From: a virus
Length of the DNA stretch: 64,000 bases
IMG/VR virus record: IMGVR_UViG_3300030329_005540
Location: 1 to 64,000 of that record
Direction: 5' to 3' (one strand)
In this document: positions 3,462 through 53,957 of the stretch, in pieces
Layout: each line of letters starts with the position of its first letter
How positions within the stretch are numbered: the first letter of the stretch is position 1
Notes under the pieces: model-generated
Told to the model about the DNA's origin: nothing
Database searches by the model: none
What the model saw: the letters and a program-made list of their open reading frames with translations, nothing else
Program-made: the position numbers and the translations under genes

Positions 3462-5347
3462 TGGGAACTAAAGGAGTAGAAGAACCACTGATCATATTTA
3501 CGACGGGTTCAGGCATAGCCACCGGCGTAAATTCATTTCAGTTGACAGGCTCGGTTGTTGTACAGCCGACGCCATACGTATCTATTTCTCGCGAGAATAT
3601 CCACAACGGCAAAAGACACGGAGCGCGAGATACAATTACGTTAGATGGTCAATTAACAGGTTATACTTGCCCGGACAGAACTAACAACTTTGATTATCTA
3701 ACAAGTTTTCAAGATCAGCTAATACAAAAATTTCAAGAAAACCAATATGGCTGGCTTAGAGTAAGAGAAAATAGCGGGGAGGTTTTTTCTGCGCCGAACT
3801 GCCGCGTTCAATCAATTAATTTTAGAGAAAGTAAACTATATAATTTAGTAGATTATACTATTTCGCTTGAAAGTTATCCTTCACAAGCTTTGGATAGTTC
3901 GTCATATGCTCACTTCGGAGTAATCAATCCAGTAGATACTTGGAACTTTTCTGAGTCTGCGGGCAAGGTTTCCTTGACTCATGAGATATCAGCTAAAGGC
4001 TTTAACAGATTTAAAAATGGTGCTGGTAAAGCTGACGCAATTTTAAACGCTAGAAACTTTGTTCATTCTCGTACTGGCTTGAGTCATTCATATGTGGCTC
4101 CGACGTTTGTAGTAAATGGAATAAATAACGCATCTCCCGACCCCGTGCTATTGAATCGTTCTGAAATCCAAAACCCAATAGAGGGTACATATTCTATTAC
4201 CGAAAACTATGAGTTTAATCGAGATGGTGAACGTAACGCGCCAATAGTTACCACCAGTTGCAATATACAATCCGGTATAAATCAAGACTTCGCTAGCGTT
4301 GATTTGAACGTACAGGTTCAAGGTGGCTGGACGGGAATTCATAGCGGCTCTGCTAACGCGCCTGACGGAGCAACAACTTACGGCAACCATTCCCCCACAG
4401 AATTAACAGACTATGTAACCGGAATATTGACCCAAAATTTAGTCAACAAAGCAAAAGCCCTGTCAAATATTAATGATTTAAATAGCAAGCCAGTTAGTTA
4501 TTCTGCGCGAGAAGATTTCAATGCCAACTTAGTAGAAATAAATGTTTCCTACGATAATAACCAATTGTTCCAAACGATATCAAACGGCAGCACTACAATA
4601 GCCAAGGACTACGCTTACTTTGATTATTCTCTTTCCACCAATAGAGACGTAATAAGCAACACGTCGAAATACACTATAGTGGGCAACATTGTAGGTAGAG
4701 GGCACTTAAAAGATAAATATCATAACGCGGTTACATTTTTAGAAAATGATATGACTCCGAATATAACTGGATATTTATACGCCTTAGCCAATGATTATCA
4801 CACCAAGCAAGACGCGGTAACACGAGAGAGTCTTAACCCAACCCCAACCACTGTGTCTATAGACAAAAATTCTATAGAAGGGTCTATTTCTGTCAGAGGC
4901 GAGTTCAACGATCTCGAAGAAGCCACCGTGACTCTTTCTGAAGAAAGCTATAAAGTATCAGACTACCTAGAGGACATAGTTTGGAATTGGGAAGTCACGC
5001 CCAGCCTCCCTCATTACTCGACCACTCCCTCTAACAATTTGGCAGGGGTTTACATGGTGTACGACGCGGGCATAATGAAAAGAATAAGATTTCAATTGTC
5101 ATTAGATTGCAGAGCAAAGAAATGCGTAAATTTCCAAGATGCCGTGAGAATCGCGGAAAAATATGCAAATTATTTAACAATGGCTCACATTGACCAAGAA
5201 TCTTATGTAGACAAAAGCGCCTCTTCCAACCAAAATCCGACAGACGGAACAATCAGAGTATCCCTAAACGGAACATGTAAAAAACACTCTAAACACAATA
5301 TAATAGATAAGGATAAAACTAAAATTATAGGAGATTATGTTAATTAA
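3461..5347 (+). CDS. Putative tail/baseplate structural protein (distal tail/hub-like)
   Basis: 628-aa ORF, TAATG-coupled to the previous gene. Contains PTPYVSIS...ITLDGQLTG...VQSINF motifs of the kind seen in phage tail-tube-fold proteins. Confidence 0.5.
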   Translation: MGTKGVEEPLIIFTTGSGIATGVNSFQLTGSVVVQPTPYVSISRENIHNGKRHGARDTITLDGQLTGYTCPDRTNNFDYLTSFQDQLIQKFQENQYGWLRVRENSGEVFSAPNCRVQSINFRESKLYNLVDYTISLESYPSQALDSSSYAHFGVINPVDTWNFSESAGKVSLTHEISAKGFNRFKNGAGKADAILNARNFVHSRTGLSHSYVAPTFVVNGINNASPDPVLLNRSEIQNPIEGTYSITENYEFNRDGERNAPIVTTSCNIQSGINQDFASVDLNVQVQGGWTGIHSGSANAPDGATTYGNHSPTELTDYVTGILTQNLVNKAKALSNINDLNSKPVSYSAREDFNANLVEINVSYDNNQLFQTISNGSTTIAKDYAYFDYSLSTNRDVISNTSKYTIVGNIVGRGHLKDKYHNAVTFLENDMTPNITGYLYALANDYHTKQDAVTRESLNPTPTTVSIDKNSIEGSISVRGEFNDLEEATVTLSEESYKVSDYLEDIVWNWEVTPSLPHYSTTPSNNLAGVYMVYDAGIMKRIRFQLSLDCRAKKCVNFQDAVRIAEKYANYLTMAHIDQESYVDKSASSNQNPTDGTIRVSLNGTCKKHSKHNIIDKDKTKIIGDYVN

Positions 5348-7599
5348 TGGCTGGTAAAAGGGACATATTTTTTAATAGGCTCGGGCCGTCTGGAATCAAT
5401 TGCATCCGAACAGGAGATGTAATTGGATTTTATGGTTTTCACCACTATACCGGCAGCCACGGTCAAGTTTACTTAAACGAAAAATATGACAATCCAAGCC
5501 AAGCTTCTATACAGCCCGGAGGAGTAGATACATCTACTCACCCTTTAGTTTTGTTGGGTACGGGTTCTAACCGCTCTCATATATCTGGATCGGGACACTT
5601 TGATGGGGAGACCGTGTATAGAATGGAGGATAAGTTCCCGGCGGATGATTGGTCGATGTGTATCGACTTCGGGCCGTTTGATGGTTTCCAAAATCGAGAC
5701 CAAAGCAAAGTACTCGTTAGCACAATGAGGACTTCTTCGGATACCTCTGGATTTAACGTGGGGATCAATGGCGCGAATAAAATTTATTTTGAGTATTATC
5801 ATCCTTCCGGTTACATGGAAAGAGTCACCGCTAATGAAATTGAATTATCTCGTAAAAATATAATTTCTATTGATTATAAAAAACAAAAACACATTTTAAA
5901 AACGGGTTATAATTATGATATTTCAGGCAATGTTTTATTTACTCGAAATGATTCTTATAGTCTGCCAAGCGAATTAACTATAAGACACCATAATTTAGGA
6001 AATAGACCCGCCGCCGGAGAGCAACTACTACCAAATGAAATAATTAAATTCTCAAATGTAGATACAAAAGCTTCTCAAACAATGTTTGTAGGAGATTTTT
6101 ACAGTAGTGATTCAAATTATACAGGTTATAGTGGGTATTTTAATAACGTAGTATTATTTAGCGGCGAGGGAGCCAGAGGTAATCGCGCCCCGCAAATGGG
6201 AGCCTCATTTTTTATTAGCGAATTTTCTCTTGAAACCACAGGTATTACCACAAGCTACGAATTTTTAAACACTGGGTCAGGAGTTTATCAAAGCGCGGTA
6301 ACAGGTACGGGTATAACTGGTTATTCTTCTGAAATAGATTTTGTTACCGGAAGAGACGGAACAATATCTTCGATAGTCAAGAGAACCGAGTTAACGGGAG
6401 AATTAACTGGATTAAAATTAACTTTTGCAGACTCTAATTGGGGAACTGATATAATAGTTTCTGGCAACATAGTTTATAAAAATCCACAAGTAGCAATCAT
6501 TGAAAGCGGTGGAAAGCCTTACGCTATTGGCTCTCCTTATTCCGCTTATAAGTTTCAAGGTCAATCTGGAGCAAGCGGAATTTTAAGCCCAAGCGGCGTT
6601 ACGCGAGTTAAGAAAACTTTTAAAATCCCAGAAGTCAGAAGCGGTGACGCAGAATATTCAGAAGGATACGCTAATACTAATGTAGTATTCATGAATACTA
6701 TAACAACTGGAGAGCTTTATGAAATAAAAACCAGAAAGCCCACCGAGATTCCTAGCGAAAGCTTATTCAATCCAAGGACAAATATTGTGACTCAAATTAG
6801 TCCTGAGCAAAAAACTCCAGCTAATTTACAAACAAAAACCTTTGTTGAAACCCCCGGTAAAGACCCTGAATCTTTGTCAGACAAATTTAATACAAGCGGT
6901 GGGGCCGCATTTATAAACGGACAGCTTCAAATGTCTGGAGTATCTGGAGGAGCATCTGGATTGGCTGCTGTTGATCATGGAGCTTTTTATATAGCAAATG
7001 GAACTAGGGTTTATACAAATCCGGGTAGTGGAGTTTTAACTCGCCCTACTGAAGTTTTTGGATCAAATGTAGTTACTGGAGAATTACAACTATTAGAATT
7101 TTCTACGCCAGACTATTTAAATTATGACGATTTAAACGACGACGGCATCAGTGGGGTCGATGGCTCTCAATTTATAGAGCCTTATTATAGCGGCGCGGGA
7201 GATTTAAAATTGACAGGCTCTCAATATGTTAATAACGACATTTACATGAATGGTCAAAGGCTAAATTCCGGCATCAATTATACAATTGCTTTAAACGTGT
7301 TAACCGTTAAGAGAAGCTCTTTTGAAGATATGCCTACTGGTGAAATGATTTTCTCTCCAAGTAATTTCGCCTCGGCCACCATTACCGGAACCAGCGGTTC
7401 ATTCCAAAAAACAAGCAATGCTCTTTATCAGCCTCAAATTTATTTAAATGGAATAAGACAAACCGAAGGAATCAATTACAAAACTACTTCAGACCATAGT
7501 TTATTAAATTCTCAAGTTAGAATTGAACCCCAAGATTCCATACTATATGGTAATGGAAGTGGATTTTTCAATTTTACAGGATTTACCCCCATTTTTTAA
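5347..7599 (+). CDS. Virion structural protein with LamG/ConA-like N-terminal domain; S/T-G rich
   Basis: GSGHFDG...WSMCIDF...GFNVGIN...YSGYFNNVVLF pattern is LamG-like. C-terminal IY(M/L)NGxR...GINY repeats are common in phage tail proteins. Confidence 0.5.
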   Translation: MAGKRDIFFNRLGPSGINCIRTGDVIGFYGFHHYTGSHGQVYLNEKYDNPSQASIQPGGVDTSTHPLVLLGTGSNRSHISGSGHFDGETVYRMEDKFPADDWSMCIDFGPFDGFQNRDQSKVLVSTMRTSSDTSGFNVGINGANKIYFEYYHPSGYMERVTANEIELSRKNIISIDYKKQKHILKTGYNYDISGNVLFTRNDSYSLPSELTIRHHNLGNRPAAGEQLLPNEIIKFSNVDTKASQTMFVGDFYSSDSNYTGYSGYFNNVVLFSGEGARGNRAPQMGASFFISEFSLETTGITTSYEFLNTGSGVYQSAVTGTGITGYSSEIDFVTGRDGTISSIVKRTELTGELTGLKLTFADSNWGTDIIVSGNIVYKNPQVAIIESGGKPYAIGSPYSAYKFQGQSGASGILSPSGVTRVKKTFKIPEVRSGDAEYSEGYANTNVVFMNTITTGELYEIKTRKPTEIPSESLFNPRTNIVTQISPEQKTPANLQTKTFVETPGKDPESLSDKFNTSGGAAFINGQLQMSGVSGGASGLAAVDHGAFYIANGTRVYTNPGSGVLTRPTEVFGSNVVTGELQLLEFSTPDYLNYDDLNDDGISGVDGSQFIEPYYSGAGDLKLTGSQYVNNDIYMNGQRLNSGINYTIALNVLTVKRSSFEDMPTGEMIFSPSNFASATITGTSGSFQKTSNALYQPQIYLNGIRQTEGINYKTTSDHSLLNSQVRIEPQDSILYGNGSGFFNFTGFTPIF

Positions 7600-7607
7600 C
7601 TAAAAAC

Positions 7608-7615
7608 GTGTAATT
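7608..7615 (+). promoter_or_regulatory. GTGTAATT putative late-promoter motif
   Basis: Lies in an intergenic gap 18 nt before the ATG at 7634. The same motif recurs in five other intergenic positions. Confidence 0.55.
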
Positions 7616-7633
7616 TTAACTGGAAAAAGGAAA

Positions 7634-10600
7634 ATGTTTAGGAAAATAGAAGAAGTTCAGATAGGTGGAGAAGCACCCGGAGAAGCTTTCGGGGGCTTTA
7701 TCTACAATTTGGGATGCCAGATAGGATACAATGGCAACCCAACCACCGTGTCTGTCAACGTCGTCAGTGAAAATGGCGCGTACAATATTTCCAAACAAGA
7801 CCTTAGTACCATCGAGGGCACTTCAATCAATGTGGGCAGCGAGATAAAATTTCAAAATATGTATTTGAAAGATTATCAAATGACTTCTGACGCTAATGCT
7901 AAATTACTATCATTAAATTACATAGATAGAACCATTTTATTTAAGAAAATTTTTATTGGTTTGATTGGTGTCCACGGAAACCCTCTTTCATTAATGAACA
8001 CTAAAACTAGCAGGGTTTCAAAAGATTTTAAGCATGTTCGTTTTCCGGTTCAATGTATGCCATGCAGCTACGCTGACGATGTACCACCGCTTAAGCCCGT
8101 TGATGTTAAATTCCGCGCAAGCTCCGGTTTTGTGCATAACGTAGACCTTAAAAAAGGTGGTGCAGTTTTACTCGGTACTGAAGAATTTTCTAAAAACTTA
8201 TGCGAACAAAGACAAGTAAGTTATAGCTGGCGAGAACTTGTTTTTGTACTAAATACAATTGGTATTCAAATTCAAGCCAACCCAGATACCGGCGAACCAT
8301 CCATCACCGATAGGGGCAAAATTCACGAAAGAGAAAGATTCACGGGAACGCTTGACGAAGTAATTTCTCAATGGTGTGCTAAATTCGGATATAGCTGGGG
8401 ATTCGATCCGCAGTTAGAAAAAATATACGGAATAGATAAAATTTATCCCATTGAAACTTTACAAGAAGTTAAAGATAAAATAAATAATTTAAGCGGGTCT
8501 TCTAAGATCGTTGTAACGAGCACATCTGAGAGCGCCAGCTTAGACGGGACTATGGTACATGACCATGTTTCGGCGGTCAAGAAACCTTTCCATAGACAAA
8601 CGACATCCGAAACCGATTTCATGAGAACGTCTTTTGAAAATATAAAATTAGAAGATTTATTCGGAACCGGAGGAGAAGGAGGGCTTTATGGCGGCGGCAG
8701 AACTTTGGAAGAGTTAATGATCTCGTCTATTTTGGCTAAATATAATACTGACGCAAGAAAATTGTATAACATGCAATTGGCTCGTGACAAAGCTCAAGCC
8801 AAAGGCGGCAATTTAAATACTTCTAGCTGGACATCTAGCAAAGGAGATAATTTTTTAGAACCCTTGGGTATAACGTGTGGATATCATTTAACAGACGCGG
8901 AAAAACAACTCTATGTCAACTTGATTGCGCTCACGCCAGCCACGATGACCGCAATTAATAACTTCCAAGCTCAATATGGGGTTGACGCTGACGCTTTCGT
9001 TGGCACTTATAGCAAAGCTCTGGAAGAAAGATGGATCGAATGGGAGAAAGAGATAGCTGATTTTATAGGCAAGTATTATTGGACTCGCAAGCCCGCCGTC
9101 GATTTTTCAGACTGTAAAGCATTTTGGAAAATCAATAGGCAATTAACTGTTGAGCCCAAATCTGATCTTTATACAACTCAAGAAAATAAAAGATATCCAT
9201 ATTATAAAATATTAGAAAACCACCCCGTAACAGCGATAAGCGCCGTGGGCTCGGCCACGATTGATGTCACTTCAAACGCATGTTCTGACACAGCGCCTTA
9301 CGACGGATTTGCCCCCGTTCTGGGCGGTCCTTCTGTCCACCTAATCAGAGGTGCGACTTACGTAGTTAATTATCTAGGATGTGATCCTAAAGATACAACC
9401 TTGGCAAATCCTTCTCCAGTATATTTTAAACTCTATAAAAACGAAGATTTTACCGGGGCCGTGGCTATGGAAGTCATACCTAATCCCGGCGGCAACACAA
9501 AAGCCAACATAACTATTCCGGGGAATTTAACTGAAAACGTTCTTTATTATAAAAACGCTGCTGGCGATGCACAATCTGTTAGCGTTATTGACGACCCGAG
9601 AAAGCAAAACGGTTTGGAAGAACTATGGATTACAGAATGGCCCGCCGCCTATGGTACTGATACCACGGATATCGATAGAATGTTTATGAAAAACGGCAAG
9701 GCGGCGTTAAAAACAGCCTTGCCTCAATATCAAGAGTTAGTGGGTTTAGCTGCGAGTACATTTTTACCTTCGCTACAACAAATTTCTACTGCCGCCTACA
9801 ACGAAGCCGTTAAGCAGTCTAACGACGGATTCGATCCAGTTATTTGGATATTGCCAGAAAAACAATATATGGATGACACTTTTTCGCCGCCTACAAGCAT
9901 AGACGAGGGAGCCACCAATACCAACGAAAAAATCTTCGACACATCAAAGAAACCGGGAGTGTCTGATAATTGTAAAGACGCTTGCGACTATAGCTTGATT
10001 GAAAAACACTGTAGATGCACTGGCCGAGATTGGATTTCTGTTAGACCTACATTCGTGGGAAAAATCTCTCCTAAAGCTAGATATATTACATTCGACGTTA
10101 ATAATGAAAACCATGAAATTGTTTTACCTGTGGAAGAACGAGTACTTGGATACCACATTCAAAAACAAGACATAATTCTTGTACATAAAGCCTTGGAATA
10201 TTTCTACGGCCAAATGAGACACGGCGCAAACACAATGGGGATAAAGGTAACTACTAAAGACATAACAAACGACATAGACGAACAGATAATAGACATTAAT
10301 GATGTGCAGGAGAAAATAGATAATTATAGTTGGTCTGATAACCAACCGGGGATTCCGGGTGCGGGCAAAGTCAGAAAAGAAGGCAAAATAATTGTACCTG
10401 ATAAAAGTTGGGCTGGTGGAAAGACTACTTTTACCGCAGTACACCCATATACGTATCACCAATGGACAGATCAATCCTACGTAATATCTGAGCCCACTGA
10501 AAAATTTTCGTGTTCAGTTCTTGGTTTGGATTTTGAAGAAATAGATAGCGTCTTGACGCCCAGTAAGGGTTTGATATCTATGCAAATTAATTATAGCGCT

Positions 10601-10732
10601 GATGGTATTCAAACAGATTTGCAATTTAGTAATAGACAATTAGGAGGAAATGAAATGGCATTGCTGAAAGAAAGCACATTCCACAGACTAGAACCACTTT
10701 TAGGATTAAATAGATACGGAAGAACTTTTTAA
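7634..10732 (+). CDS. Putative baseplate hub / tail-tip protein
   Basis: 1032-aa ORF. Positional evidence plus a hub-like N-terminus (FTGTLDEVISQWCAKFGYSWGFD). RBS GGAAAAAGG. Confidence 0.45.
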   Translation: MFRKIEEVQIGGEAPGEAFGGFIYNLGCQIGYNGNPTTVSVNVVSENGAYNISKQDLSTIEGTSINVGSEIKFQNMYLKDYQMTSDANAKLLSLNYIDRTILFKKIFIGLIGVHGNPLSLMNTKTSRVSKDFKHVRFPVQCMPCSYADDVPPLKPVDVKFRASSGFVHNVDLKKGGAVLLGTEEFSKNLCEQRQVSYSWRELVFVLNTIGIQIQANPDTGEPSITDRGKIHERERFTGTLDEVISQWCAKFGYSWGFDPQLEKIYGIDKIYPIETLQEVKDKINNLSGSSKIVVTSTSESASLDGTMVHDHVSAVKKPFHRQTTSETDFMRTSFENIKLEDLFGTGGEGGLYGGGRTLEELMISSILAKYNTDARKLYNMQLARDKAQAKGGNLNTSSWTSSKGDNFLEPLGITCGYHLTDAEKQLYVNLIALTPATMTAINNFQAQYGVDADAFVGTYSKALEERWIEWEKEIADFIGKYYWTRKPAVDFSDCKAFWKINRQLTVEPKSDLYTTQENKRYPYYKILENHPVTAISAVGSATIDVTSNACSDTAPYDGFAPVLGGPSVHLIRGATYVVNYLGCDPKDTTLANPSPVYFKLYKNEDFTGAVAMEVIPNPGGNTKANITIPGNLTENVLYYKNAAGDAQSVSVIDDPRKQNGLEELWITEWPAAYGTDTTDIDRMFMKNGKAALKTALPQYQELVGLAASTFLPSLQQISTAAYNEAVKQSNDGFDPVIWILPEKQYMDDTFSPPTSIDEGATNTNEKIFDTSKKPGVSDNCKDACDYSLIEKHCRCTGRDWISVRPTFVGKISPKARYITFDVNNENHEIVLPVEERVLGYHIQKQDIILVHKALEYFYGQMRHGANTMGIKVTTKDITNDIDEQIIDINDVQEKIDNYSWSDNQPGIPGAGKVRKEGKIIVPDKSWAGGKTTFTAVHPYTYHQWTDQSYVISEPTEKFSCSVLGLDFEEIDSVLTPSKGLISMQINYSADGIQTDLQFSNRQLGGNEMALLKESTFHRLEPLLGLNRYGRTF

Positions 10733-12423
10733 TGTATTTAAGAAGCGGCACATCAAATATTTTTTACTCTGGAGATAGTTATCATTCTACTGCGGAGATG
10801 GATGTCTTTTCTTTTGATGTAGCGGGATATGTCGATACTCCAACGGGGGTAGCTGCTATTAAATTTTCCGGTGACAGTGGCATATCAACATTTAAATTTG
10901 ACAAGGGTAAAATTTATGATCCTGAAAACAGATACGTTTCTTCCTATAGAAATAAAGAATCATTTTCCATATCGGGAAATATGTCTGGCGAGCACTATGA
11001 CTACTATATTAATAATACTCCCGTGTGTTTTAGCGGCGTAAAAAATGATTATAAATTACAAAGATTTATTATCGGAGCTACCGGCGGCTCTCTTGTAACA
11101 GAAAGAATAGCTTTTTATTCTAAACCTTTCGGCCACAAATTAAGCTTAGATAATAGATTTATTGTTAGCGGGAAATTAACAGGACTACTTGAGTCTACGG
11201 GAGAATACTCTAGTTCAAAATTTGAAATATTTTCAGGCATTGTTCCTAATAATGATTTAATTAATGTTAGCGGATTCCAACAAGGACCGAGAACTTCGTC
11301 TTTAATAACTTTCTCGACAACCGGGACTACGCAGCAACATTTAGATAGTGGTTTCGCCAATTATGAAAACGTTAATTTTGTTTTAAAGTTATATACGAAT
11401 TTTGGTCAAATAAATAAAGAGTTTTCCGTGCAAGCGCGGCCTGAAGAGGAAACAATCTTTTCATCTGGGGTTTCTGCCAGCAGATTTTTAATTTCAGGAA
11501 CCGGAGAACAAAAACAATCTGGAATTTACTCTTTGCGTTATGAGGTATTTGAAAACTTTAGATATCCTCTAACTTCTAAACCTTTAAAAATAAGTTTAGA
11601 TTACGCGAGTGGAGACACGGGTAATTATTATTCTTTTTCTGGAATTGATTTAACTTATTCTGGCAGCGGTTACAGCGGAGTGCCAGATGTTATATTCACA
11701 GGCGACGGATTAAAAATGTCTCCAGTGGTTACTCCTCTTATGAGTATGAAACTCACCGGAATTAATGTTACGTATTCCGGCAGCGGTTACAGCGGAAGCC
11801 CAACAATATCTATTTCCGGTGGAACTCCATCCACCGCTGCAACGGCTTCAGCAAGCACTAACATAACTGGTGGTTTATATTCTGGAATGGTAACAGGAGT
11901 TTCTGTTACGAATTCTGGAGCAGGATATGATGCAGTTCCATCGATAATTTTTTCAGGCGTAGTATACGGCGGAGGTATTCAAGCCTCGGGTACGGCTCTA
12001 ATGGGGCATGGCCAAGTTACAGGCATCACTTTAAACAACCCCGGTGGATATTTAGAGCATCAACCGGGTCTGAGCGGATTCTCTGGCGGGGGCGCTGGAG
12101 CCACGACTTTTAAAAACGCAACGGGTTCAGGAACAATTTCAGGGTACTCTAAATCATTTCTTGATTTTTGGAGTTTGAAAACAGGAGAATCAATCACTGG
12201 TGAATTAGTTGATTATACCAATAAAAATTATATAACAGGATATCAATCTGGTCATAGAATTGGTTATATGGATACGGGACACACAAATGTTACAGGCAAA
12301 AGCTATCAGGCTGTTATAACTACATCGGGTAAATATAACGATAGCGGAGCCATGTACGCTAATTTAAATTTTCATTTGTATAGTGGTAAAATTCCCAGCT
12401 TAAATATAACTGGAATAAGGTAA
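10732..12423 (+). CDS. Baseplate/tail structural protein with VTGVxVTxxGxGYxxxPxIxF repeats; extremely S/T-G rich
   Basis: Four repeats of the motif found in T4-like baseplate wedge/VrlC-type proteins (YSGSGYSGVPDVIFTG, YSGSGYSGSPTISISG, NSGAGYDAVPSIIFSG, NPGGYLEHQP). Confidence 0.55.
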   Translation: MYLRSGTSNIFYSGDSYHSTAEMDVFSFDVAGYVDTPTGVAAIKFSGDSGISTFKFDKGKIYDPENRYVSSYRNKESFSISGNMSGEHYDYYINNTPVCFSGVKNDYKLQRFIIGATGGSLVTERIAFYSKPFGHKLSLDNRFIVSGKLTGLLESTGEYSSSKFEIFSGIVPNNDLINVSGFQQGPRTSSLITFSTTGTTQQHLDSGFANYENVNFVLKLYTNFGQINKEFSVQARPEEETIFSSGVSASRFLISGTGEQKQSGIYSLRYEVFENFRYPLTSKPLKISLDYASGDTGNYYSFSGIDLTYSGSGYSGVPDVIFTGDGLKMSPVVTPLMSMKLTGINVTYSGSGYSGSPTISISGGTPSTAATASASTNITGGLYSGMVTGVSVTNSGAGYDAVPSIIFSGVVYGGGIQASGTALMGHGQVTGITLNNPGGYLEHQPGLSGFSGGGAGATTFKNATGSGTISGYSKSFLDFWSLKTGESITGELVDYTNKNYITGYQSGHRIGYMDTGHTNVTGKSYQAVITTSGKYNDSGAMYANLNFHLYSGKIPSLNITGIR

Positions 12424-12435
12424 GGAATAAGGAAA

Positions 12436-12930
12436 ATGAGAGAAGAAGAGCTAATAACTATCGAGCAAAGCAAGCGGGTACAAATCAAAGATATTAAAAG
12501 AGATTACCTAGTTTGCGAGATAGACAATCCTATAGACAAAGGGAAAAAGGTAGAAATTAAAGTGGCTAAACCATATAATATAAGAGCCTCTTCTTATGAT
12601 GGTAAAACAATTCAATATACTAGCTGGAGCAACGGCACTACTATAAATATCGCATATACTGCTCACGCAAGCTCAAATTATAATTCCAGAACCGCAGATT
12701 ACCAGAATGCATCTGATGTATGTACGGTGGGGGCTCACATAGAAATGTTGTATCCTCCTTACATAGTAGACGATTTTATCCTAGTGTCAGCTAATACAGT
12801 TGGCAATGAGGGTGATAACGTGCAAAACATTGGAAGTTTAGTTCATTGGGTTGATCAAAATAGAGAAGGCCGATACTGGAAAGATGATTGTGGGTCTGGC
12901 GGAGGAGGAGGTGGCTCAGTATGGGTTTGA
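12436..12930 (+). CDS. Small tail-module protein, unknown function
   Basis: 164-aa ORF with RBS GGAATAAGG. The Gly-run C-terminus doubles as the SD (GGAGGAGG) of the next gene. Confidence 0.6.
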   Translation: MREEELITIEQSKRVQIKDIKRDYLVCEIDNPIDKGKKVEIKVAKPYNIRASSYDGKTIQYTSWSNGTTINIAYTAHASSNYNSRTADYQNASDVCTVGAHIEMLYPPYIVDDFILVSANTVGNEGDNVQNIGSLVHWVDQNREGRYWKDDCGSGGGGGGSVWV

Positions 12931-15900
12931 TACCATACATAAAAACAGGCACAAGCACATCGGCTGAATTAATGAATGACCTTTACTCGGGTCTAGACGA
13001 AGCCGTTAATCTTGTAACTAATGGAAAGTCTATGTTCTTTTTGAACACGACTGCAAATTGGTCTCTTGAAAACCCTGAAAGATATTATCACTATTATTCT
13101 GGTTACAGCTTAATTGATCCGAGTCAATGGCCTAGTTTCACCTTTGGTCAAGACGTAGGTTATCAAGCTGGAGTCCTTTCTACTCCCGTGGGCGGTACAA
13201 TTGACATGAGCCCTAGGCAATTTTGGTTTTTAAGCGGAGCTAAAAGCGGAGACTGCGATCCTAACGATACCGACAATGTCAATCGCGAACATTGCGTTAG
13301 CGGTGAATGGAAAACGCCAAGAAGAATTGACGCCACTAATGATATTGGTTGGTATTGGAAATTATATGGAAGACATTATTATTTTACTAATGCGTTAGCG
13401 GGAGGTTTATGTGGCGCGGGATGCGGATGGCAAGTCCCTCTTTATAAACACGGTTATTATGAAAAAATGGTGGATGATGTCACCATTTTTCAATATAACA
13501 CTGGGAAAAAAGCCGTAGTAGTTTTAGAAGGAGGTACGAAAACTAGTGATTATGGAAGATTTCCAAATATGTGGACAAACCCATATACAAGGGTCGAAGA
13601 AAGACAAAGAATACCTTACGTTACAGACACCGCTTGGTCTTTAGGTCAAGAATTTGACAACTCATTGCAAGTCCATAAGATATCAGGTATTCAGGGGTTA
13701 GTAGAATTTACCCGATATCAGCCTACTCAAGTTGGAACAATTGCCAACCAAGGCACGGCGACAGACTTTCACCCCGGTAGCGGCACGGGAACTCCCGCTG
13801 GCCCAACTGGCCCCACTGGCCCCACCGGCCCCGGCGGATACCCCGGAGGCGGTCCCACTGGCCCCACTGGCCCCACTGGCCCCACCGGCCCCGGCGGATA
13901 CCCCGGAGGCGGTGGAGCAAGTCCATCTTTTGATCCATATTCAATCCCAGAACAAGAAAAGTTCTCTTGGGAACAGTTCATTAAAAGTGCGGAGAAGCCA
14001 GATAGAAGTAAACATTTTTATGAACAACAAAATCGCGCAACCGCAGACGATATAGAAAAGTTTTATCAAAATAACGAGTCGAGTGAAAATTTTCGTTTTT
14101 GTTCTCATGTTACCAAAAGCGAAATTGACTTAGTTAGTCAAAACGCAAACAGAACGGGTTTAATTGGGCAATGTCAAGAGCCTTATCAATGCTGGATGGC
14201 TGCTTCTAAAAAATGGTTTTGGAACGATTTAAAAGCCGCTGTGCCGCAATTGGCAACTGCACCTCAAACCATCAATATGACTTACAGCTTTTGCCGCTCC
14301 GGTACAGATATAAATGTTGCCGGAGACACAGGAGCCGACAATTATCTAGAAACTAGTGCAACAGCTACGGGCTGGGGTCCGACAGGAGCGAATGGTATCA
14401 ACGCAAGCGGCCAGCATACCAGTTTCTCTGATTTTACGGGGGATGTTGGAATCGGTTTCGCTTACTGGAAAAGCCTCATAGAAAGGATGTACGCAAATTA
14501 TGGTACTCACTGCGGATTAGCGGGGAATGACCTAACAATAAATTTCGTAAACTTGGGAGAAGAACTAGAAGGCGCTGAAGCTTATGGAATGAATAGTCAT
14601 CTTGCTCTCGATGAGTTTGGAAATCCTGATTATTCAGTACTAGAAAATCCGGACCTAAACATAGGAAGAATCAGGCTTGCTGTTCCTAGAAGCGGAGATT
14701 GGAAAAACGATGATGTATACGCATATTCTGATTTTCCAGCCACTAATCATCCTGACGGAGCAGGAGCAGATGGGGGAAGAAATCATCCTGCTGATGGAAA
14801 TATTGTTTTTAATATCAATTTTAATTGGCAAACAGACGCTAACGTAATCACAGGAACTTGGGATAACACGGGACACGATGGTAATCCCAGCGCAGCCAAT
14901 CCACATTTACATGCTTCCATAGCCCGTGTTGCTGCTCATGAAATTGGCCATTCTTTGGGCTTCGGGCATTCATCAAGCGACAAGTGCGATAGTATCATGG
15001 GTCCGACTACTTTCTGGGGAGAGAGCTTACGTAGCGATTGGCCCACGGGGTTCACGCAAGAAACAGACGGCAAATGCGTTCATGAAATGTATGGATATAA
15101 TAGCGGGCCGGTTTGTTTTTCTGGATATTCAATGATATCTTTTGATTTAACGAGACCAGCTTGCGCTGAACATCCTGATGAATATTTAAGAGAATCTTGG
15201 TATAAAACTCCAACTCTCGGACCAGAGCCTCAACCTCATGAAGTGATATATACTTGTACTCACCCTGCAAACAAGCGCCCCGTCGTCCCTGAAAATTGGC
15301 CACAAATTGAAAATAGATTTGAAATTGCAGAATTAATATTTGATGGATACGAAACCTGTAGCACATGCGGTCAAGACCATCACGGCGAAGGAACGTTCCA
15401 AGGATATAAAAATTATACTTTTTCTAATAAATACGATAAGTACAAATTCTTCAGAATACATAATTTAAATAATTATGATATGACTCTTAAATTTGAGGCT
15501 TCGTCCATTGGCGGCGCGAGCTTCGAAGGGGCGACAAAAGTTTCTAATGGTATTTATCAAATAGGCGACACGACGGCAATGTTCGCAGAAGCCGACGCCG
15601 GAACTGGGCACACAATTGTTATTCCTAAACATGAATCACGCTGCGTAAGAAGAGACTTTGGCGAGTACACAAATGGATTTAGACATTTTCAAAAATTTAA
15701 ATCCAGCGACCATAGATATATTTTAGAGTTATCAGAAAGTTTCAAGGCTTATCCTAGATATTATGATTATCATGGCGCGGATTGGAATTGGTTTAGATAT
15801 AATCACACTAATAATGTTATCAATCCATTTCTAATTGACAGAATTATTTCTGGAATGGGTGATAGATTTATTTTAGATGAATCTGCTTGGGGCAGAACTT

Positions 15901-18900
15901 GGGACGCCTCTGGCCTTTATGCTGCACCGTTGAATTATACTGGTACTGACGGAGCCATAAAAAGTTATGAGGATTATACTCCCGGTGATGACATTGGCCA
16001 AGTTAAGAGGTTTAGAACGGATTCTACGGGTGCGTTGGTAGAGGACGAACTCGGAAGCATGATAGTACCAACTTATAATAACTCTTTTAGAACTGGAGAA
16101 AATTATAGCTGGAGTACAACTGATCCAAATACTCTTTTAGCAGACTTTATATATCATACTGGGTTTGTTTCTCAGCATTTTTTGATGACTAGTGGAGAAA
16201 GTTACCCAGCACATTTACAACAGGACGAATCCTACAAAGTAGAAACTAGCGGCCAAGCTATAAGTAAATATTGTTTGCATAAAAAAACAGTTGCTTATTC
16301 CGGCGCGAAGCATATTTATAGATTTTTGCAGGATTTAAATGTAAATCTTGTTTCTATCGAGGCTGATGGGCGAGTAACGAGCAGAATACCTAGCTCGGGT
16401 TGGGATTATGGAGTTTCAGGCATGTTCGTCGGCCACACTGGTTGGTTATCCACTTCTGCTTGGAGTGCCAGTGACATTAGTCAATTCGCAGACAGGGATC
16501 AATTGAGCGTCGGTACAGACATACTAAATACTCAATTATCTCGTGAGCGTTACGCCAAGGGCGCGACCACGGCAGAAGATGGTTTTCAGTGGGTCATCGG
16601 TCTTGACATTAAAGCGATGAACGATTCAGCGGATGGTCCCACCGGCTGGAAGCCACACGATTTATACGAATCAGGTAATAAACAGGGCAGAGCCAGAAGA
16701 GCAATGCCTTTTCCAAACGACACCCCATTTACCGATGGAATAGGTTCTGGCGCGAATCCAGACGGATGTTGTACGGGAATGTCTAGTGGAATTTGGGACC
16801 GATGGGATGCCGAAAAAGCCGCAAAAACATCAGGGATTTTGAATGACCCATTCGCTTTCTCTATTAATCAATATAATTTAACTACGAATATCTTCGGCAC
16901 AAATCACTTTCAATCTGCGATGGGCCAAATTTACCCGATGAATTGGGAAGCCGCATCCCGATGTATACCAAGCGATGCAGACCCTTGCCATAGTCGAGTT
17001 GGGGTGAATCCCAAGCAAAGATTTTATTCTAATATAGATTTTATCAATCAACAAGACCATAAATTTGGAAATGTGTGGTACGGTAAAAAACCGATTACCG
17101 GATATCTACAAACAGGTGGTTTTTATAGAGTAGGTACTTTTACCGCGAATACGGCCCAAGGCGCATATACTTATCAAGAAGCTGGTCAACGAGGGCAAAA
17201 TAATTATAAATATTATGGAATGTTTTATAGCCGAGGCAGCGATGCGCCGCGAGACGTATACGCTCACGCGCAAAACAACGCTTATTGCGGAGATGGTGGC
17301 GCTGCGGGTGGCGTGCAGGGATTTTCTGGAGCTAATCAAGTTTTATACAATTCGGGTTGGGATGATCAAGCCGACCACGGCACTGACGGACATTTCATAT
17401 ACCAAATAAGAATCACAGGCAAAGACGGAAGCTCAAGATATTCTCTTAATTATCCAACATGGCCCGGACCCCGGAGAGAATTTTTCTATTACACCAATCC
17501 AAAGTCGTTGTTGAATCTAAGACAAAATTCTAACATTGCCGATATGAAACATGGCAATAATTTAAGAATAAATTTAGATTGCGGAATATCTGACCCTTAT
17601 GACGAAGATCATATGAAAAGCTACAAATGCGAAGATAGTAGCTCATCCCCCGTTGGATGCAGTGATTCTTCTGTCGCTTGTTATAATTGCAGTGATCCAA
17701 CAGATGTAACAGAGCGTATGGACACGTATCACATCGTAGACATCATCCGCACTGGAGTAATTGATTCTGATCTTGGTCAGCCTACGGTTGACCTTCTGAC
17801 GGAAAGATGGTTTCCGTTCCACTATAGACACGACATAACAAATCATTTGGCCGCCGTGGGCTCAGAAAGTAAATACGGATTAGTAGGACAGAGTAACAGA
17901 AACAATAAAGTTGGCCCCATCGAACACGAAAGATACGGAAATAAAAAATTAGGAGGAGCCGCAAACGCGAATAAGGCGACAAATATTTGGGCTGGCAGAA
18001 GAAATTTCTTCGAAATGAAACTCGGAGATATAGATAGTGGTTTATATGAATTTAATAGAGTTGATGGAATCTGGACAGGATTCTTCAAAGTCGCCGCTGG
18101 AGAACCTGAAAAAGTTAATTTATATAGATTGCTGACAGATCATCCTTCAGGAGCAGCTTTTAAAAATCACATTATGTCATGTGATACAAATGAATTTAAT
18201 GCATACAATTATGCTTATTATTGGAATACTTATTACTCTGAGGCAACCACCGGCATTGCGCGAAACTGGCATCCTAACGAATACGAACTCGTGCAAAGAG
18301 TAACTCCGCCCATTTGGTCTCCGACTCTCACTGGGGATTTTGACGTATCAGCAACGGCGTCGTCATATGATACGGCTTCATATAAATACGACGCGGCAAA
18401 AAGCTTTGGCGCTCAAGCAACCGTGGAAGCTTATGGGCAAAAAATAAGAGACATGTTCGACAATGCTAGGCAGGGAGTCGATAATTCCGAGTTCTTTAAT
18501 TTCCAGAATTCTCCTAATGCTAAATATTATTACGGACCATATGGTGCATTGCATTATTCTTATCAAAAGAATATTAATTTAATTTACAAGATGTCCAAAG
18601 AAGTTAATAACGGAGTAATTTACACATGGAATAATAGTAAAAACTACGGTCCTCTGCAAAGAACATCTAAAGATTTTGAGCGCAGATTAGATGAAGGAAC
18701 AACCAGACCTGAACCTATATTTTTAACCGAGAAACAATATGGAAGACATGGCTCTAGCCCGGTTTTGCATAGTAGAATCACAGATAGATTAACCGCTCAA
18801 AAGATCACCTCGCTGCATGGCTTGGAAGATTATAATTACCCCAACTTGGGCTTAGACTCTGCGGGTCTAACAATTTCTTCGCCAGCTTTGGGAACCCCGC

Positions 18901-20489: not shown

Positions 20490-20494
20490 TAAAA

Positions 20495-24526: not shown

Positions 24527-25230
24527 GCGCTTTTGATCCTGCCTATAAGCTCCAGCATCTTGGGCTTTGGAATATCGTTAATGGATTCAAACGAATCGGC
24601 TTCTGGGAATTTTTCAGATATTAATTTATTTTTAATTCTGTCGAAAGAGAAACCTTTCTCTCTCATAACCGTTTGAAGCGTAGAGACAGGGCTAGCCGCG
24701 CTTGTCTCGACGGGTGCTTCAGCCAGTTTAGAGTTACCCATTTCTTCTTTAGAAACGATATTAATTTTAAGAAAATTACGAACACAACGAACAAAAGCTC
24801 TATTCTCAGCAATTGGCCCAAGAAAATGTTTGGCAAAATTGTGAGTATTGTGTGGCGCTGCGTCTCCGATTGCAGAGAAGGTGACTTCTCGACCTTCGGT
24901 TTCGAAATTAGGTATCCATTTTATACTGCAAGTTGCGACGACGTATTCTGGGTGAGGAGACACGACGTTATAAGTTACGTCAGTATAACCACGGATTTGA
25001 GCGAGTTCTTTAATACCTCCGAGTAAAATCAAAAGATCATAATCGGACAATTTAGTTACGTCTGTTTCGCTTGTGCGGTCTTTATTCGGCACAAGATATT
25101 CTGTTTTGACCATTTTTCTCCAATCAACAAATCCATCTTCATTGAAGATATAATTTACATTGGAATCAACGATCAGTCCGTGTGTGTCTCGTTTAACAGT
25201 GCGGACTTTAGTGGTAGCTTTCCTAGGCAT
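24523..25230 (-). CDS. Rad52/ERF-like single-strand annealing protein (putative)
   Basis: YVVATCSI...FSAIGDA...IAENRAFVRCVRNFLKI resembles the AE(T/N)RAxxRAxR motif of Rad52/Sak-type annealing proteins. Has its own sigma70-type promoter. Confidence 0.5.
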   Translation of the reverse strand: MPRKATTKVRTVKRDTHGLIVDSNVNYIFNEDGFVDWRKMVKTEYLVPNKDRTSETDVTKLSDYDLLILLGGIKELAQIRGYTDVTYNVVSPHPEYVVATCSIKWIPNFETEGREVTFSAIGDAAPHNTHNFAKHFLGPIAENRAFVRCVRNFLKINIVSKEEMGNSKLAEAPVETSAASPVSTLQTVMREKGFSFDRIKNKLISEKFPEADSFESINDIPKPKMLELIGRIKSA

Positions 25231-25236
25231 ATGAAT

Positions 25237-25265
25237 ATACTAACACGAGCTTTAAGGATTGTCAA
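25237..25265 (-). promoter_or_regulatory. Sigma70-type promoter TTGACA-N6-AAAGC-N6-TAGTAT
   Basis: 17-bp spacer, extended -10 TG, 6 nt before the ATG at 25230. Confidence 0.75.
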
Positions 25266-41947: not shown

Positions 41948-42300
41948 TTTAAAAAGTCTAATAGATTTTTGGGTTTGGATTCTATCTGTTTATCTTCTCC
42001 TACTTTTTCGTCGCCTAACTGAAAAACGACGGGATCAAACCCTTTTAGGTCAATATTTTTTTTGTATTTAATTAAATACGTCTTACCTTCGTCGCTTAAA
42101 AACCAAGCAAGACTATTCAACTTAAAGGGAAGATACAGTTTTGTCCAGAACTTTTCTTCAGAAATATACTCAAACAACTTTTTAGCGATTGCCATCTCGC
42201 GTTTAACAACGCCGCGATTATTCCACACCTTTTCCGGCTCTTTGCAGAACTTGGAAATTAATCTTTGATATTTATTGGGCCTCCGCTTGGATTTTCGCAT
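41944..42300 (-). CDS. Hypothetical basic protein
   Basis: 118-aa ORF, ATGA-coupled to recA. Confidence 0.65.
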   Translation of the reverse strand: MRKSKRRPNKYQRLISKFCKEPEKVWNNRGVVKREMAIAKKLFEYISEEKFWTKLYLPFKLNSLAWFLSDEGKTYLIKYKKNIDLKGFDPVVFQLGDEKVGEDKQIESKPKNLLDFLK

Positions 42301-44323: not shown

Positions 44324-44324
44324 A

Positions 44325-46210: not shown

Positions 46211-46211
46211 T

Positions 46212-53956: not shown

Positions 53957-53957
53957 T

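What the first reader, a model, noticed from the sequence alone, without database searches (positions are those of the whole stretch)
5347..12423. Directional Ser/Thr-Gly dipeptide overload in specific tail proteins: candidate glycosylation sequon for a phage-encoded virion glycosylation system
Seen (hand counts): the 563-aa protein (10732-12423) has about 54 SG/TG dipeptides, roughly 70% of its glycines and one per ~10 residues, spread over the whole protein rather than only its repeats. The 750-aa protein (5347-7599) has about 44. The reverse order GS/GT is much rarer. The 1032-aa hub-like protein between them has only about 7, so the signal is protein-specific rather than genome-wide composition. 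Established: Ser-Gly is the glycan attachment motif of eukaryotic proteoglycans, and some phages glycosylate their virions with their own glycosyltransferases. Inference: S/T-G is a selected O-glycosylation sequon on exposed virion proteins, written by the ~20 glycan genes in this same window, giving a fucosylated and possibly sulfated glycan coat.
Basis: partly seen in the sequence, partly recalled or inferred. Interest (0 to 1): 0.85.

Follow-up and report, generated by a model that had tools for sequence, protein, structure and literature searches.

The report
Ser/Thr-Gly overload on phage tail proteins
Two unrelated tail proteins of this uncultured marine phage, and their counterparts across its whole clade, place a serine or threonine in front of half to three quarters of their glycines; the fold does not require this, so the pairs may be attachment sites for the phage's own soluble sugar-transferring enzymes, but no chemistry has tested that.

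Summary
The 563-aa protein has 54 [ST]G against 17.7 expected (z 10.5), and 70% of its Gly follow S/T. The 750-aa protein has 44 against 16.5 (z 8.4). The reverse order is not enriched, and the 1032-aa protein between them has 7.

The bias acts at the protein level, because all S/T and Gly codons are used. It is spread over every segment of both proteins and conserved in homologues down to 27% identity. At conserved sites it is specific for a hydroxyl residue: S and T are about equal and N/D are under 1.5%. The two proteins are not detectably homologous. Further unrelated proteins in related genomes carry the same bias, and 26 T4 virion proteins do not. Low-bias members of the same family exist, so the fold does not require it.

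O-glycosylation remains the best single reading, at about 0.4. The 15-kb glycan island varies among relatives; the conserved parts are a virus-only GT9-like half-enzyme, a GT1+DUF4214 enzyme and GMD. The GT9-like and GT1 genes sit inside the replication module, so DNA is a rival acceptor.

No chemistry exists. This scan has reported the same pattern on at least five other genomes.

The parts
5347..7599 (+). 750-aa tail protein rich in [ST]G, with a ConA-like/LamG jelly-roll at about residues 19-282
   Evidence: 44 [ST]G against 16.5 expected, z 8.4. The family keeps the bias: 30 conserved [ST]G column pairs, 88% S/T. VIA-align Z 15.1 to CBM/lectin domains and Z 14.8 to the cyanopodophage Pan3 tailspike; the model confidence is only moderate.
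7634..10732 (+). 1032-aa protein between the two biased genes; an unbiased internal control, conserved in synteny
   Evidence: 7 [ST]G against 11.6 expected. Homologues lie between the two biased genes in L003 and L007-L011.
10732..12423 (+). 563-aa tail protein rich in [ST]G. The N-terminal half (residues 8-238) is a confident beta-sandwich whose first ~130 residues match ConA-like/galectin-type lectin domains. Residues 300-475 are a repeat region shared with giant phage fibre proteins. The C-terminal part could not be folded as a monomer.
   Evidence: 54 against 17.7, z 10.5. AF2 pLDDT about 90 for residues 8-238. VIA-align Z 15.6 (residues 1-226) and 12-14 (residues 1-130) to lectin/CBM domains. 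PHROG tail-fibre and virion-structural hits on residues 298-424. 11 of the family's 15 invariant columns belong to [ST]G dipeptides.
12888..20489 (+). 2533-aa giant distal tail protein with a moderate [ST]G excess and a matrixin-like stretch
   Evidence: 72 against 39.8, z 5.8, but only 27% of Gly follow S/T. PF00413 at aa 635-708, E 3.4e-6.
20483..24526 (+). 1347-aa last gene of the tail module, with only a weak bias
   Evidence: 27 against 18.3, z 2.3.
24523..25230 (-). 235-aa core gene, probably a Sak/Rad52-like single-strand annealing protein. It marks the start of the replication/recombination module, which is convergent with the tail module.
   Evidence: 55-66% identical in relatives. 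386 relatives in IMG/VR. The Atlas gives leads to SSAP_Sak/Rad52 clusters at 0.88-0.89 only. No Pfam, PHROG or NCBIfam hit.
25262..26449 (-). 395-aa virus-only GT9-like 'half' glycosyltransferase. An ADP-heptose-type donor-binding segment sits at the N-terminus, followed by about 245 residues of unknown fold. It is a candidate priming enzyme.
   Evidence: PF01075 at 21.8 bits against a cut-off of 22; homologues score above the cut-off. Family profile against WaaF 1PSW: E 5e-7, over residues 79-149 only. Atlas clusters are 95-100% viral. Present in all 10 related records searched.
26449..28359 (-). 636-aa GT-B glycosyltransferase (Glycos_transf_1) with DUF4214 and a C-terminal extension; a conserved core gene
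   Evidence: PF00534 E 3.8e-8 and DUF4214. phrog_2170 glycosyltransferase E 8e-16. 54-61% identical in G002, G003, G005 and G007.
42258..57565 (-). Glycan island of soluble enzymes: GMD, Fcl, two GT4-like, a STELLO-like GT, a Zn-dehydrogenase, a DegT aminotransferase, a sulfotransferase, GT6, GT11, an epimerase, an HldE-domain-II-like nucleotidyltransferase, an HddA-like kinase, GT2 and three unknown ORFs
   Evidence: Pfam and NCBIfam best hits. None of the window ORFs scanned has a 19-residue window with Kyte-Doolittle mean above 1.8. Only GMD, and partly Fcl and the epimerase, are conserved in relatives.
54907..56597 (-). Possible nucleotide-heptose supply: an HldE-domain-II-like adenylyltransferase (54907-55671) and an HddA-like heptose-7-P kinase (55641-56597)
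   Evidence: Best NCBIfam hits are TIGR02199 (E 3.9e-21) and NF049969 (E 7.8e-27). Both score far below the curated cut-offs.

Best explanation
In this clade of large (about 130-180 kb) aquatic phages, a hydroxyl residue followed by glycine, usually phi-x-phi-[S/T]-G at or near the end of a beta strand, is kept on a subset of tail and receptor-binding proteins because it is the acceptor motif of a cytoplasmic, phage-encoded protein O-glycosylation system.

Shown:
- The motif is strongly and directionally enriched, specific for a hydroxyl residue, and positionally conserved.
- It is shared by unrelated proteins of the clade and is not required by the fold.
- Every related record examined carries a virus-only GT9-like half-enzyme, and every related genome compared also carries a GT1+DUF4214 enzyme and GMD.
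- All sugar enzymes of the window look soluble, and no flippase, polymerase or oligosaccharyltransferase was seen.

Inferred:
- The conserved GT9-like and GT1 enzymes attach the first sugar, possibly a heptose from a nucleotide-heptose made by the HddA-like and HldE-II-like enzymes. They would act on exposed Ser/Thr of folded or folding tail proteins, as TibC/AAH do on autotransporter beta-helices.
- The variable island (here GT11, GT6, sulfotransferases and amino-sugar enzymes) then elaborates a strain-specific glycan.

Neither the attachment, the donor nor the enzyme-substrate pairing has been demonstrated.
For: (1) Size and direction of the bias: z 10.5 and 8.4, with G[ST] not enriched. All codons are used.

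(2) Conservation across the family. Homologues at 26-36% identity keep O/E 2.3-3.1. They share 40-58% of the query's alignable [ST]G dipeptides exactly. Inserts carry new sites at the same density.

(3) Specificity for a hydroxyl residue. At 31 and 30 conserved column pairs, the residue before a retained Gly is S/T in 93% and 88% of cells. S and T are equal (213:213 and 102:104). N+D account for 3/458 and 3/235. Separate conserved N-G columns do not interchange with these. 17 and 8 of the columns mix S and T.

(4) The fold does not require it. In the exhaustive profile search, 12 of 81 family representatives that carry the N-terminal domain have O/E below 1.8. At the 31 conserved columns, ten low-bias members keep the dipeptide in only 65 of 229 alignable cells. 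In 43 cells S/T is replaced by E, D, N, I, V, A or P while Gly is retained.

(5) Unrelated proteins share it. hhalign gives 0.1% probability that the 563-aa and 750-aa families are related. At least four further families without BLAST or HMM similarity reach z of 5 or more in related genomes G002, G003, G005 and G007.

(6) It is not generic to tail proteins. The maximum z among 26 T4 virion proteins is 2.0. In 543 ORFs from 80 other loci, a strong directional bias occurs only in this lineage.

(7) It is confined to the tail side. In 80 loci centred on the SSAP-like gene, 30 of 31 ORFs with z of 6 or more lie in the convergent tail module.

(8) Candidate enzymes. The GT9-like gene is present in 10 of 10 related records and in G001. 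GT1+DUF4214 and GMD are present in 4 of 4 genomes. Relative L002 carries two further clear GT9 genes and a GT8 gene next to its tail module. The best NCBIfam hits include heptose-nucleotide enzymes. No convincing membrane-spanning segment was found in any of the window ORFs scanned.
Against: - No chemical evidence of any kind exists.
- The GT9-like and GT1 genes are embedded in the replication/recombination module, in the order SSAP-like, GT9-like, GT1, 186-aa ORF, DnaE. This order is colinear in G001, G002, G003 and G007. Their closeness to the tail genes is therefore a module junction, and DNA is an equally natural acceptor.
- In the confident AF2 domain, 8 of 15 sites have both residues inside beta strands.
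- The dipeptides are the most invariant residues of the family, 11 of 15 invariant columns. That is typical of structural residues and atypical of the sites of a glycan coat.
- The most distal giant proteins are only weakly biased.
- G005 has the GT9-like gene and the GT1 gene, unlinked in its genome, but only a modest bias: maximum z 5.6.
- No relative lacking the GT pair could be examined, so there is no negative control.
- An earlier scan note (e1-5913433) reports a similar motif in relatives that lack the enzymes, in another lineage.
- The GT9-like protein lacks the acceptor lobe and the BAHT hallmarks.
Confidence: 0.4

Rival explanations
1. The motif is purely structural or needed for assembly. 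Phi-[S/T]-G would be a clade-specific building block: a strand-end or beta-bulge/turn unit, or the rung turn of beta-solenoid fibres. Alternatively it could be a recognition element for a clade-specific tail chaperone. It would be maintained for folding, trimerisation or stability, with no covalent modification.
For: - The dipeptides are the most conserved positions of the family: 11 of 15 invariant columns. 94-96% are retained at 64-72% overall identity.
- The context is phi-x-phi-[ST]-G: 31 of 54 sites have I, V, L, F, Y, W or M at position -1.
- 8 of 15 mapped sites lie inside predicted strands, mostly towards their C-terminal ends.
- The extreme case, the L107 giant, reads like a solenoid with ITG, LTG or ISG at each rung.
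- The bias is restricted to particular proteins rather than covering all exposed ones.
Against: - Low-bias members of the same family replace S/T with E, D, N, I, V, A or P while keeping Gly, so the fold tolerates the loss.
- N/D almost never substitute for S/T in the biased clade, although Asx-turns and ST-turns are normally interchangeable (the interchangeability is established structural knowledge).
- Two families that are not detectably homologous, and at least four further ones, show the same bias.
- ConA-like lectin domains and T4 fibre and baseplate proteins in general show no such bias.
Confidence: 0.35
2. The conserved GT9-like and GT1 pair, and possibly the island, glycosylate phage DNA or remodel host envelope glycans. 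The [ST]G bias would be unrelated to them.
For: - The pair sits between an SSAP-like gene and a 186-aa ORF followed by DnaE, within the replication module. This is colinear in five genomes.
- Phage GTs are classically DNA-modifying or serotype-converting, as summarised in PMC12619734.
- The window also encodes a PAP2 phosphatase and a KpsS/KpsC-type Capsule_synth protein, which points to lipid-linked glycans.
- The variability of the island resembles that of surface-polysaccharide loci.
Against: - No ThyA/ThyX-type hydroxymethylase was found in the 85-kb fragment. This is inconclusive, because the record is only 54% complete.
- No flippase, polymerase or ABC exporter was found among the ORFs scanned, and none of the window ORFs scanned has a convincing membrane-spanning segment.
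- This rival explains the enzymes but leaves the hydroxyl-specific, clade-wide bias unexplained.
Confidence: 0.15
3. [S/T]-G marks a different covalent modification or chemical constraint. Candidates are phosphorylation, another O-linked group, or selective avoidance of the deamidation-prone Asn-Gly and Asp-Gly in long-lived virion parts.
For: - The 563-aa protein has no Asn-Gly among 32 Asn and 77 Gly, and only one Asp-Gly.
- Hydroxyl specificity fits any O-linked modification.
Against: - The 750-aa protein has normal Asn-Gly and Asp-Gly counts (6 and 5) and conserved N-G columns.
- Other virion proteins of the same phage show no bias.
- No kinase or other candidate modifying enzyme was found that is conserved with the trait.
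Confidence: 0.07

Closest known systems
Bacterial autotransporter heptosyltransferases (BAHT: TibC/TibA, AAH/AIDA-I; PMC4358343)
   Same: A soluble cytoplasmic enzyme with a GT9-type ADP-heptose-binding domain puts many sugars on serines of a beta-rich adhesin. The sites form a regular pattern along beta strands and short loops. The enzyme gene travels with its substrate gene.
   Different: - The phage protein matches GT9 only over the donor-binding segment.
- It has no conserved Cys quartet for the iron finger, and neither its sequence nor its family profile matches TibC in the PDB.
- Its gene lies in the replication module.
- Thr is used as often as Ser.
- The substrates are phage tail proteins with ConA-like domains, not autotransporter beta-helices.
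- The donor is unknown.
Virion glycosylation of mycobacteriophages (Freeman et al. 2023, as cited in PMC12619734)
   Same: Phage-encoded glycosyltransferases modify structural virion proteins inside the infected cell.
   Different: In that system the glycans sit at the C-termini of capsid and tail-tube subunits (PMC12619734). Here the candidate sites are 44-54 dispersed [ST]G dipeptides across whole tail or receptor-binding proteins. No capsid or tube protein with the bias was seen. The original paper is not held and could not be read.
Eukaryotic proteoglycan Ser-Gly xylosylation sequon
   Same: A Ser-Gly dipeptide serves as an O-glycan attachment site. Sulfotransferases are present in the same genome.
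   Different: - Thr is used as often as Ser.
- The flanks are hydrophobic rather than acidic.
- None of the window ORFs scanned against Pfam matched a xylosyltransferase family.
- The chemistry would take place in the cytoplasm of a bacterium.
LPS heptosyltransferases WaaC/WaaF (CAZy GT9, Pfam PF01075)
   Same: The donor-binding motif of the 395-aa family aligns to WaaF 1PSW (E 5e-7). Most family members pass the Pfam cut-off.
   Different: - Only about 70 residues align.
- The GT9-like segment is N-terminal and is followed by about 245 residues of unknown fold, in place of the usual order of acceptor lobe then donor lobe.
- The family is virus-only.
Glycosylated capsids and fibrils of giant viruses (chloroviruses, mimivirus; from general knowledge, not tested here)
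   Same: A virus-encoded, host-independent, cytoplasmic glycosylation machinery with its own nucleotide-sugar synthesis decorates exposed virion proteins at non-canonical sequons.
   Different: Those are eukaryotic viruses with different enzymes and sequons. No homology was tested.

Membership tests
BAHT (TibC/AAH protein O-heptosyltransferases) | Complete GT-B catalytic domain of GT9 type, with two lobes | tested here: not met
   The family profile aligns to GT9 structures only over residues 79-149, the donor-binding segment. The Pfam match covers residues 31-144. The remaining ~245 residues match nothing.
BAHT (TibC/AAH protein O-heptosyltransferases) | Iron-finger with four conserved Cys (PMC4358343) | tested here: not met
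   No column of the 25-sequence alignment A5 has 60% or more Cys.
BAHT (TibC/AAH protein O-heptosyltransferases) | Sequence similarity to TibC/AAH | tested here: not met
   phmmer found nothing in the PDB up to E 10. hmmsearch with the family profile found only WaaF, another GT9 and PnsB1, not TibC.
BAHT (TibC/AAH protein O-heptosyltransferases) | ADP-heptose donor available | tested here: inconclusive
   An HldE-domain-II-like protein (E 3.9e-21) and an HddA-like protein (E 7.8e-27) are the best NCBIfam hits, but both are far below the curated cut-offs. The HddA-like gene is absent from G003, G005 and G007.
BAHT (TibC/AAH protein O-heptosyltransferases) | Multiple Ser of the partner protein carry heptose | not testable with these tools
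   Needs mass spectrometry.
Phage virion glycosylation of the mycobacteriophage type | Phage-encoded GTs present | tested here: met
   At least eight GT-family ORFs were found in the window.
Phage virion glycosylation of the mycobacteriophage type | Glycans on C-terminal tails of capsid and tail-tube subunits | tested here: not met
   The candidate sites are dispersed over the whole of two tail proteins. No capsid or tube protein was identified in the fragment, and no other ORF is biased.
Proteoglycan-type Ser-Gly xylosylation | Ser-specific acceptor with acidic flanks, plus a xylosyltransferase | tested here: not met
   S and T are used about equally. Position -1 is mostly I, Y, F or V. No xylosyltransferase family appeared among the Pfam hits of the window ORFs scanned.
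GT9 (Pfam PF01075) glycosyltransferases | Score above the Pfam gathering threshold | tested here: inconclusive
   The window protein scores 21.8 bits against a cut-off of 22. The L006 homologue scores 24.4, and most of the 109 homologous clusters carry a precomputed PF01075 hit.
Concanavalin A-like lectin / LamG jelly-roll fold (N-terminal domains of both biased proteins) | Structural similarity of a confident model to solved members | tested here: met
   563-aa model: Z 15.6 (rmsd 2.1, 134 residues aligned) and many galectin and CBM hits at Z 12-14. 750-aa model: Z 15.1 (179 residues aligned), but the model pLDDT is only about 70. This shows a shared fold only, not a shared function.

The most novel reading that the evidence does not exclude
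A clade of abundant marine and freshwater phages of roughly 130-180 kb encodes a 'written' O-glycosylation code, hydroxyl residue then Gly, on its receptor-binding and tail proteins. A conserved virus-only half-GT9 enzyme, working with a GT1+DUF4214 partner, would prime these sites in the cytoplasm, possibly with a heptose. Hypervariable islands would then elaborate them into strain-specific coats, here blood-group-like, fucosylated and sulfated. This would be a phage counterpart of O-antigen diversity and of BAHT hyperglycosylation.
Probability: 0.3. Interest if true: 0.85.

Novelty: new variant of a known kind. Interest (0 to 1): 0.62.

Why it matters
If the sites are glycosylated, this would be the first sequon-like code for multi-site glycosylation of phage tail and receptor-binding proteins. 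It would occur in a clade that is common in ocean and lake metagenomes: the SSAP-like marker gene has 386 relatives in IMG/VR, and the tail family has 3809 representatives.

A sugar coat on receptor-binding proteins would change how host range, adsorption, virion stability and grazing or immune recognition of environmental phages are understood. It would also give a function to the large 'LPS-like' gene islands of marine phages.

If the motif is purely structural, it is still an unusual sequence rule: a hydroxyl residue before Gly, with N/D excluded, shared by unrelated folds. That rule should be understood before such motifs are read as sequons elsewhere.

Tried and rejected
- **DNA motif or codon artefact:** rejected, because all S/T and Gly codons are used.
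- **Bias due to repeats only:** rejected, because every segment is enriched, including the non-repetitive N-terminal lectin-like half (z 6.0).
- **The two proteins are paralogues:** hhalign gives 0.1% probability. They share only a common fold class at the N-terminus.
- **A generic property of tail fibres:** rejected by the T4 control and by a 543-ORF survey.
- **Solved homologues of either protein:** none found.
- **Cultured relatives:** neither protein has a tblastn match in 50,697 phage records.
- **BAHT membership of the GT9-like protein:** rejected.
- **The 235-aa neighbour as the missing GT half:** no support. It looks like a Sak/Rad52-type annealing protein, as a lead only.
- **DNA hydroxymethylase in the fragment:** none found, which is inconclusive.
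- **Contexts of the low-bias family members:** these could not be retrieved, so the correlation between bias and GT genes has no negative control.
- **Freeman et al. 2023:** not held.
- **Literature on [ST]G or tail-protein glycosylation in phages:** nothing relevant was found.
- **Solvent exposure of the sites:** could not be computed, because model coordinates are not exposed to scripts.

Full report
**Source.** The window is the first 64 kb of an 85,675-bp IMG/VR viral contig that CheckV rates 54% complete. Identical proteins occur on a 179,778-bp contig and in Tara Oceans data. The virus is therefore an uncultured marine phage of about 180 kb. Neither of the two proteins has a tblastn match in 50,697 deposited phage records. 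Its RecA, DnaE and GT1 proteins are at most about 32% identical to anything there.

**Observation.** Every hand count was reproduced.
- The 563-aa ORF 10732-12423 has 54 [ST]G against 17.7 expected by shuffling (z 10.5). G[ST] is 11 (z -1.9), and 70% of its Gly follow S/T.
- The 750-aa ORF 5347-7599 has 44 against 16.5 (z 8.4).
- The 1032-aa ORF between them has 7 against 11.6.
- Apart from these two, the only ORF of the window (47 ORFs) or of the rest of the contig above z 3.0 is the 2533-aa ORF 12888-20489 (z 5.8).
- The excess is present in every segment of both proteins, including the non-repetitive N-terminal half of the 563-aa protein (16 against 4.8, z 6.0).
- All ten S/T codons and all four Gly codons are used, so the signal is at the protein level.
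- The usual context is phi-x-phi-[S/T]-G.

**What the proteins are.**
- Pfam finds nothing, and PHROGs matches only the repeat region at residues 298-424 of the 563-aa protein (tail fibre and virion structural protein).
- AlphaFold with a 19-sequence alignment gives a confident beta-sandwich half for residues 8-238 (pLDDT about 90). Its first ~130 residues match ConA-like, galectin and CBM lectin domains (Z up to 15.6).
- The 750-aa model is weaker. Its residues 19-282 also match lectin and CBM jelly-rolls, and a cyanopodophage tailspike (Z about 15).
- Both therefore look like receptor-binding or baseplate-periphery proteins.
- They are not detectably homologous: hhalign gives 0.1% probability.

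**Conservation.**
- Homologues of the 563-aa protein at 26-36% identity keep O/E 2.3-3.1, with 53-67% of Gly preceded by S/T.
- At about 28% overall identity they share 40-50% of the query's alignable dipeptides exactly. Inserts add new ones at the same density.
- 11 of the family's 15 invariant columns belong to [ST]G dipeptides.
- At 31 (563 family) and 30 (750 family) conserved column pairs, the residue before a retained Gly is S/T in 93% and 88% of cells. S and T are equal, and N+D are below 1.5%. Separate conserved N-G columns do not interchange with these.
- About half (17 of 31) and about a quarter (8 of 30) of the columns mix S and T.

**Is it a property of the fold or of tail proteins in general?** No.
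- T4, as a control, shows no enrichment in 26 virion proteins (maximum z 2.0).
- Among 543 ORFs from 80 metagenomic loci that share the repeat region, a strong directional bias occurs only in this lineage. It is always found in the orthologues of the two proteins, which flank an unbiased orthologue of the 1032-aa protein.
- An exhaustive profile search found 3809 relatives. Of 81 representatives with the N-terminal domain, the median O/E is 2.76, but 12 have O/E below 1.8.
- Aligned to the biased members, ten low-bias homologues keep only 65 of 229 alignable cells at the 31 conserved columns. In 43 cells Gly is kept while S/T becomes E, D, N, I, V, A or P.
- The fold therefore tolerates the loss of the hydroxyl residue, yet the biased clade almost never loses it.

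**Spread in the clade.**
- The 235-aa gene next to the tail module, an SSAP-like gene by a weak lead, has 386 relatives in IMG/VR.
- In 80 loci centred on it, 31 of 1118 ORFs reach z of 6 or more. 30 of those 31 lie in the convergent tail module.
- One is a 3328-aa protein with z 25.5.
- Four near-complete related genomes (G002, G003, G005, G007; 134-178 kb) each have 1-5 biased ORFs out of 120-166. These include at least four families unrelated to the two studied here.

**Candidate enzymes.**
- The 42-57 kb island encodes soluble nucleotide-sugar enzymes and transferases: GMD, Fcl, GT4-like, STELLO-like, DegT, a sulfotransferase, GT6, GT11, an epimerase, an HldE-II-like nucleotidyltransferase, an HddA-like kinase and GT2.
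- None of the window ORFs scanned has a convincing membrane-spanning segment.
- Most of the island is absent or different in the four related genomes. Only GMD, and partly Fcl and the epimerase, is conserved. The island therefore cannot be what maintains a clade-wide motif.
- Two other genes are conserved. One is a 395-aa virus-only protein whose N-terminal ~150 residues carry the ADP-heptose-type donor segment of GT9 (WaaF 1PSW, E 5e-7). The rest of that protein is of unknown fold. The other is a 636-aa GT-B enzyme with DUF4214.
- The GT9-like gene is present in 10 of 10 related records and in G001.
- Relative L002 has two further clear GT9 genes and a GT8 gene beside its tail genes.
- The GT9-like protein is not a BAHT. 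It shows no TibC similarity, no conserved Cys quartet, and only half a GT-B fold (PMC4358343).

**Caveats.**
- The GT pair lies inside the replication/recombination module, in the order SSAP-like, GT9-like, GT1, 186-aa ORF, DnaE, exonuclease, PHP, nuclease, primase, DnaB. This order is colinear in G001, G002, G003 and G007. Its adjacency to the tail genes is therefore a module junction, and DNA is a natural alternative acceptor. No ThyA/ThyX-type enzyme was found in the fragment, which is inconclusive.
- A PAP2 phosphatase and a KpsS/C-type protein in the window hint at lipid-linked glycans.
- In the confident domain, 8 of 15 sites lie within predicted strands. Exposure could not be computed.
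- The dipeptides are the most invariant residues of the family, which also fits a structural role.
There is therefore no negative control for the link between the motif and the GT pair.

**Earlier notes of this scan.** These notes describe the same [S/T]-G bias, together with a split GT9-like pair, on at least five other genomes. They reach the same unproven conclusion. One note (e1-5913433) warns that a similar motif persists in relatives that lack the enzymes in another lineage. I treat all of these as leads only.

**Verdict.**
- The sequon reading is the best single explanation (about 0.4), but a structural or assembly motif is nearly as likely (about 0.35).
- If glycosylation occurs, the conserved GT9-like and GT1 enzymes are the better candidates for priming. 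The island would then be a variable elaboration module.

Noticed in passing
L107:10693-20679 (-), IMGVR_UViG_3300032360_000027: A 3328-aa tail-side ORF has 379 [ST]G against 149 expected (z 25.5), and 68% of its Gly follow S/T. Its sequence reads like a beta-solenoid with ITG, LTG or ISG at each rung. This is the most extreme case seen.
   Followed up: partly
P0243, P0245, P0249, P0250, P0237, P0271, P0275, P0317, P0268, P0289: These are low-bias members (O/E 1.3-1.8) of the same tail-protein family. They are a natural experiment for whether the bias tracks the GT genes, but their genome contexts could not be fetched.
   Followed up: partly
window 12888-20489 (+), aa 635-708: The 2533-aa giant tail protein has a matrixin-type (Peptidase_M10) stretch. 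A homologue of the 563-aa protein (P0011) also carries PF00413.
   Followed up: no
L002:9742-13148 (-): A related phage has two clear GT9 genes (E 1e-9 and 2e-14), a GT8 gene and an unknown ORF inserted between its tail module and the SSAP-like gene.
   Followed up: no
window 24523-25230 (-): This 235-aa core gene (55-66% identical in relatives, 386 relatives in IMG/VR) has no Pfam, PHROG or NCBIfam hit. The only leads are to Sak/Rad52-type annealing proteins. It is a useful marker gene for this phage clade.
   Followed up: partly
window 52386-53956 (-): Adjacent GT6 and GT11 genes, with GMD and Fcl in the same island, form a histo-blood-group-like module. The pair is also present in G002 and G003 but not in G005.
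   Followed up: no
G003:157346-158299 and G003:2-1951 (+): ORFs very rich in Gly and Thr (G 18-24%, T 16-18%) lie at the terminal repeat of a complete related genome and carry an [ST]G excess (z 4.9-6.7). They may be collagen-like fibre proteins.
   Followed up: no
window 10732-12423 (+): The 563-aa protein has no Asn-Gly among 32 Asn and 77 Gly, and only one Asp-Gly. The 750-aa protein has normal counts.
   Followed up: partly
window 39024-39716 (-) and 62110-63141 (-): A PAP2-family phosphatase and a KpsS/KpsC-type Capsule_synth protein are encoded outside the main island. They hint that some of the glycan genes may act on lipid-linked acceptors.
   Followed up: no
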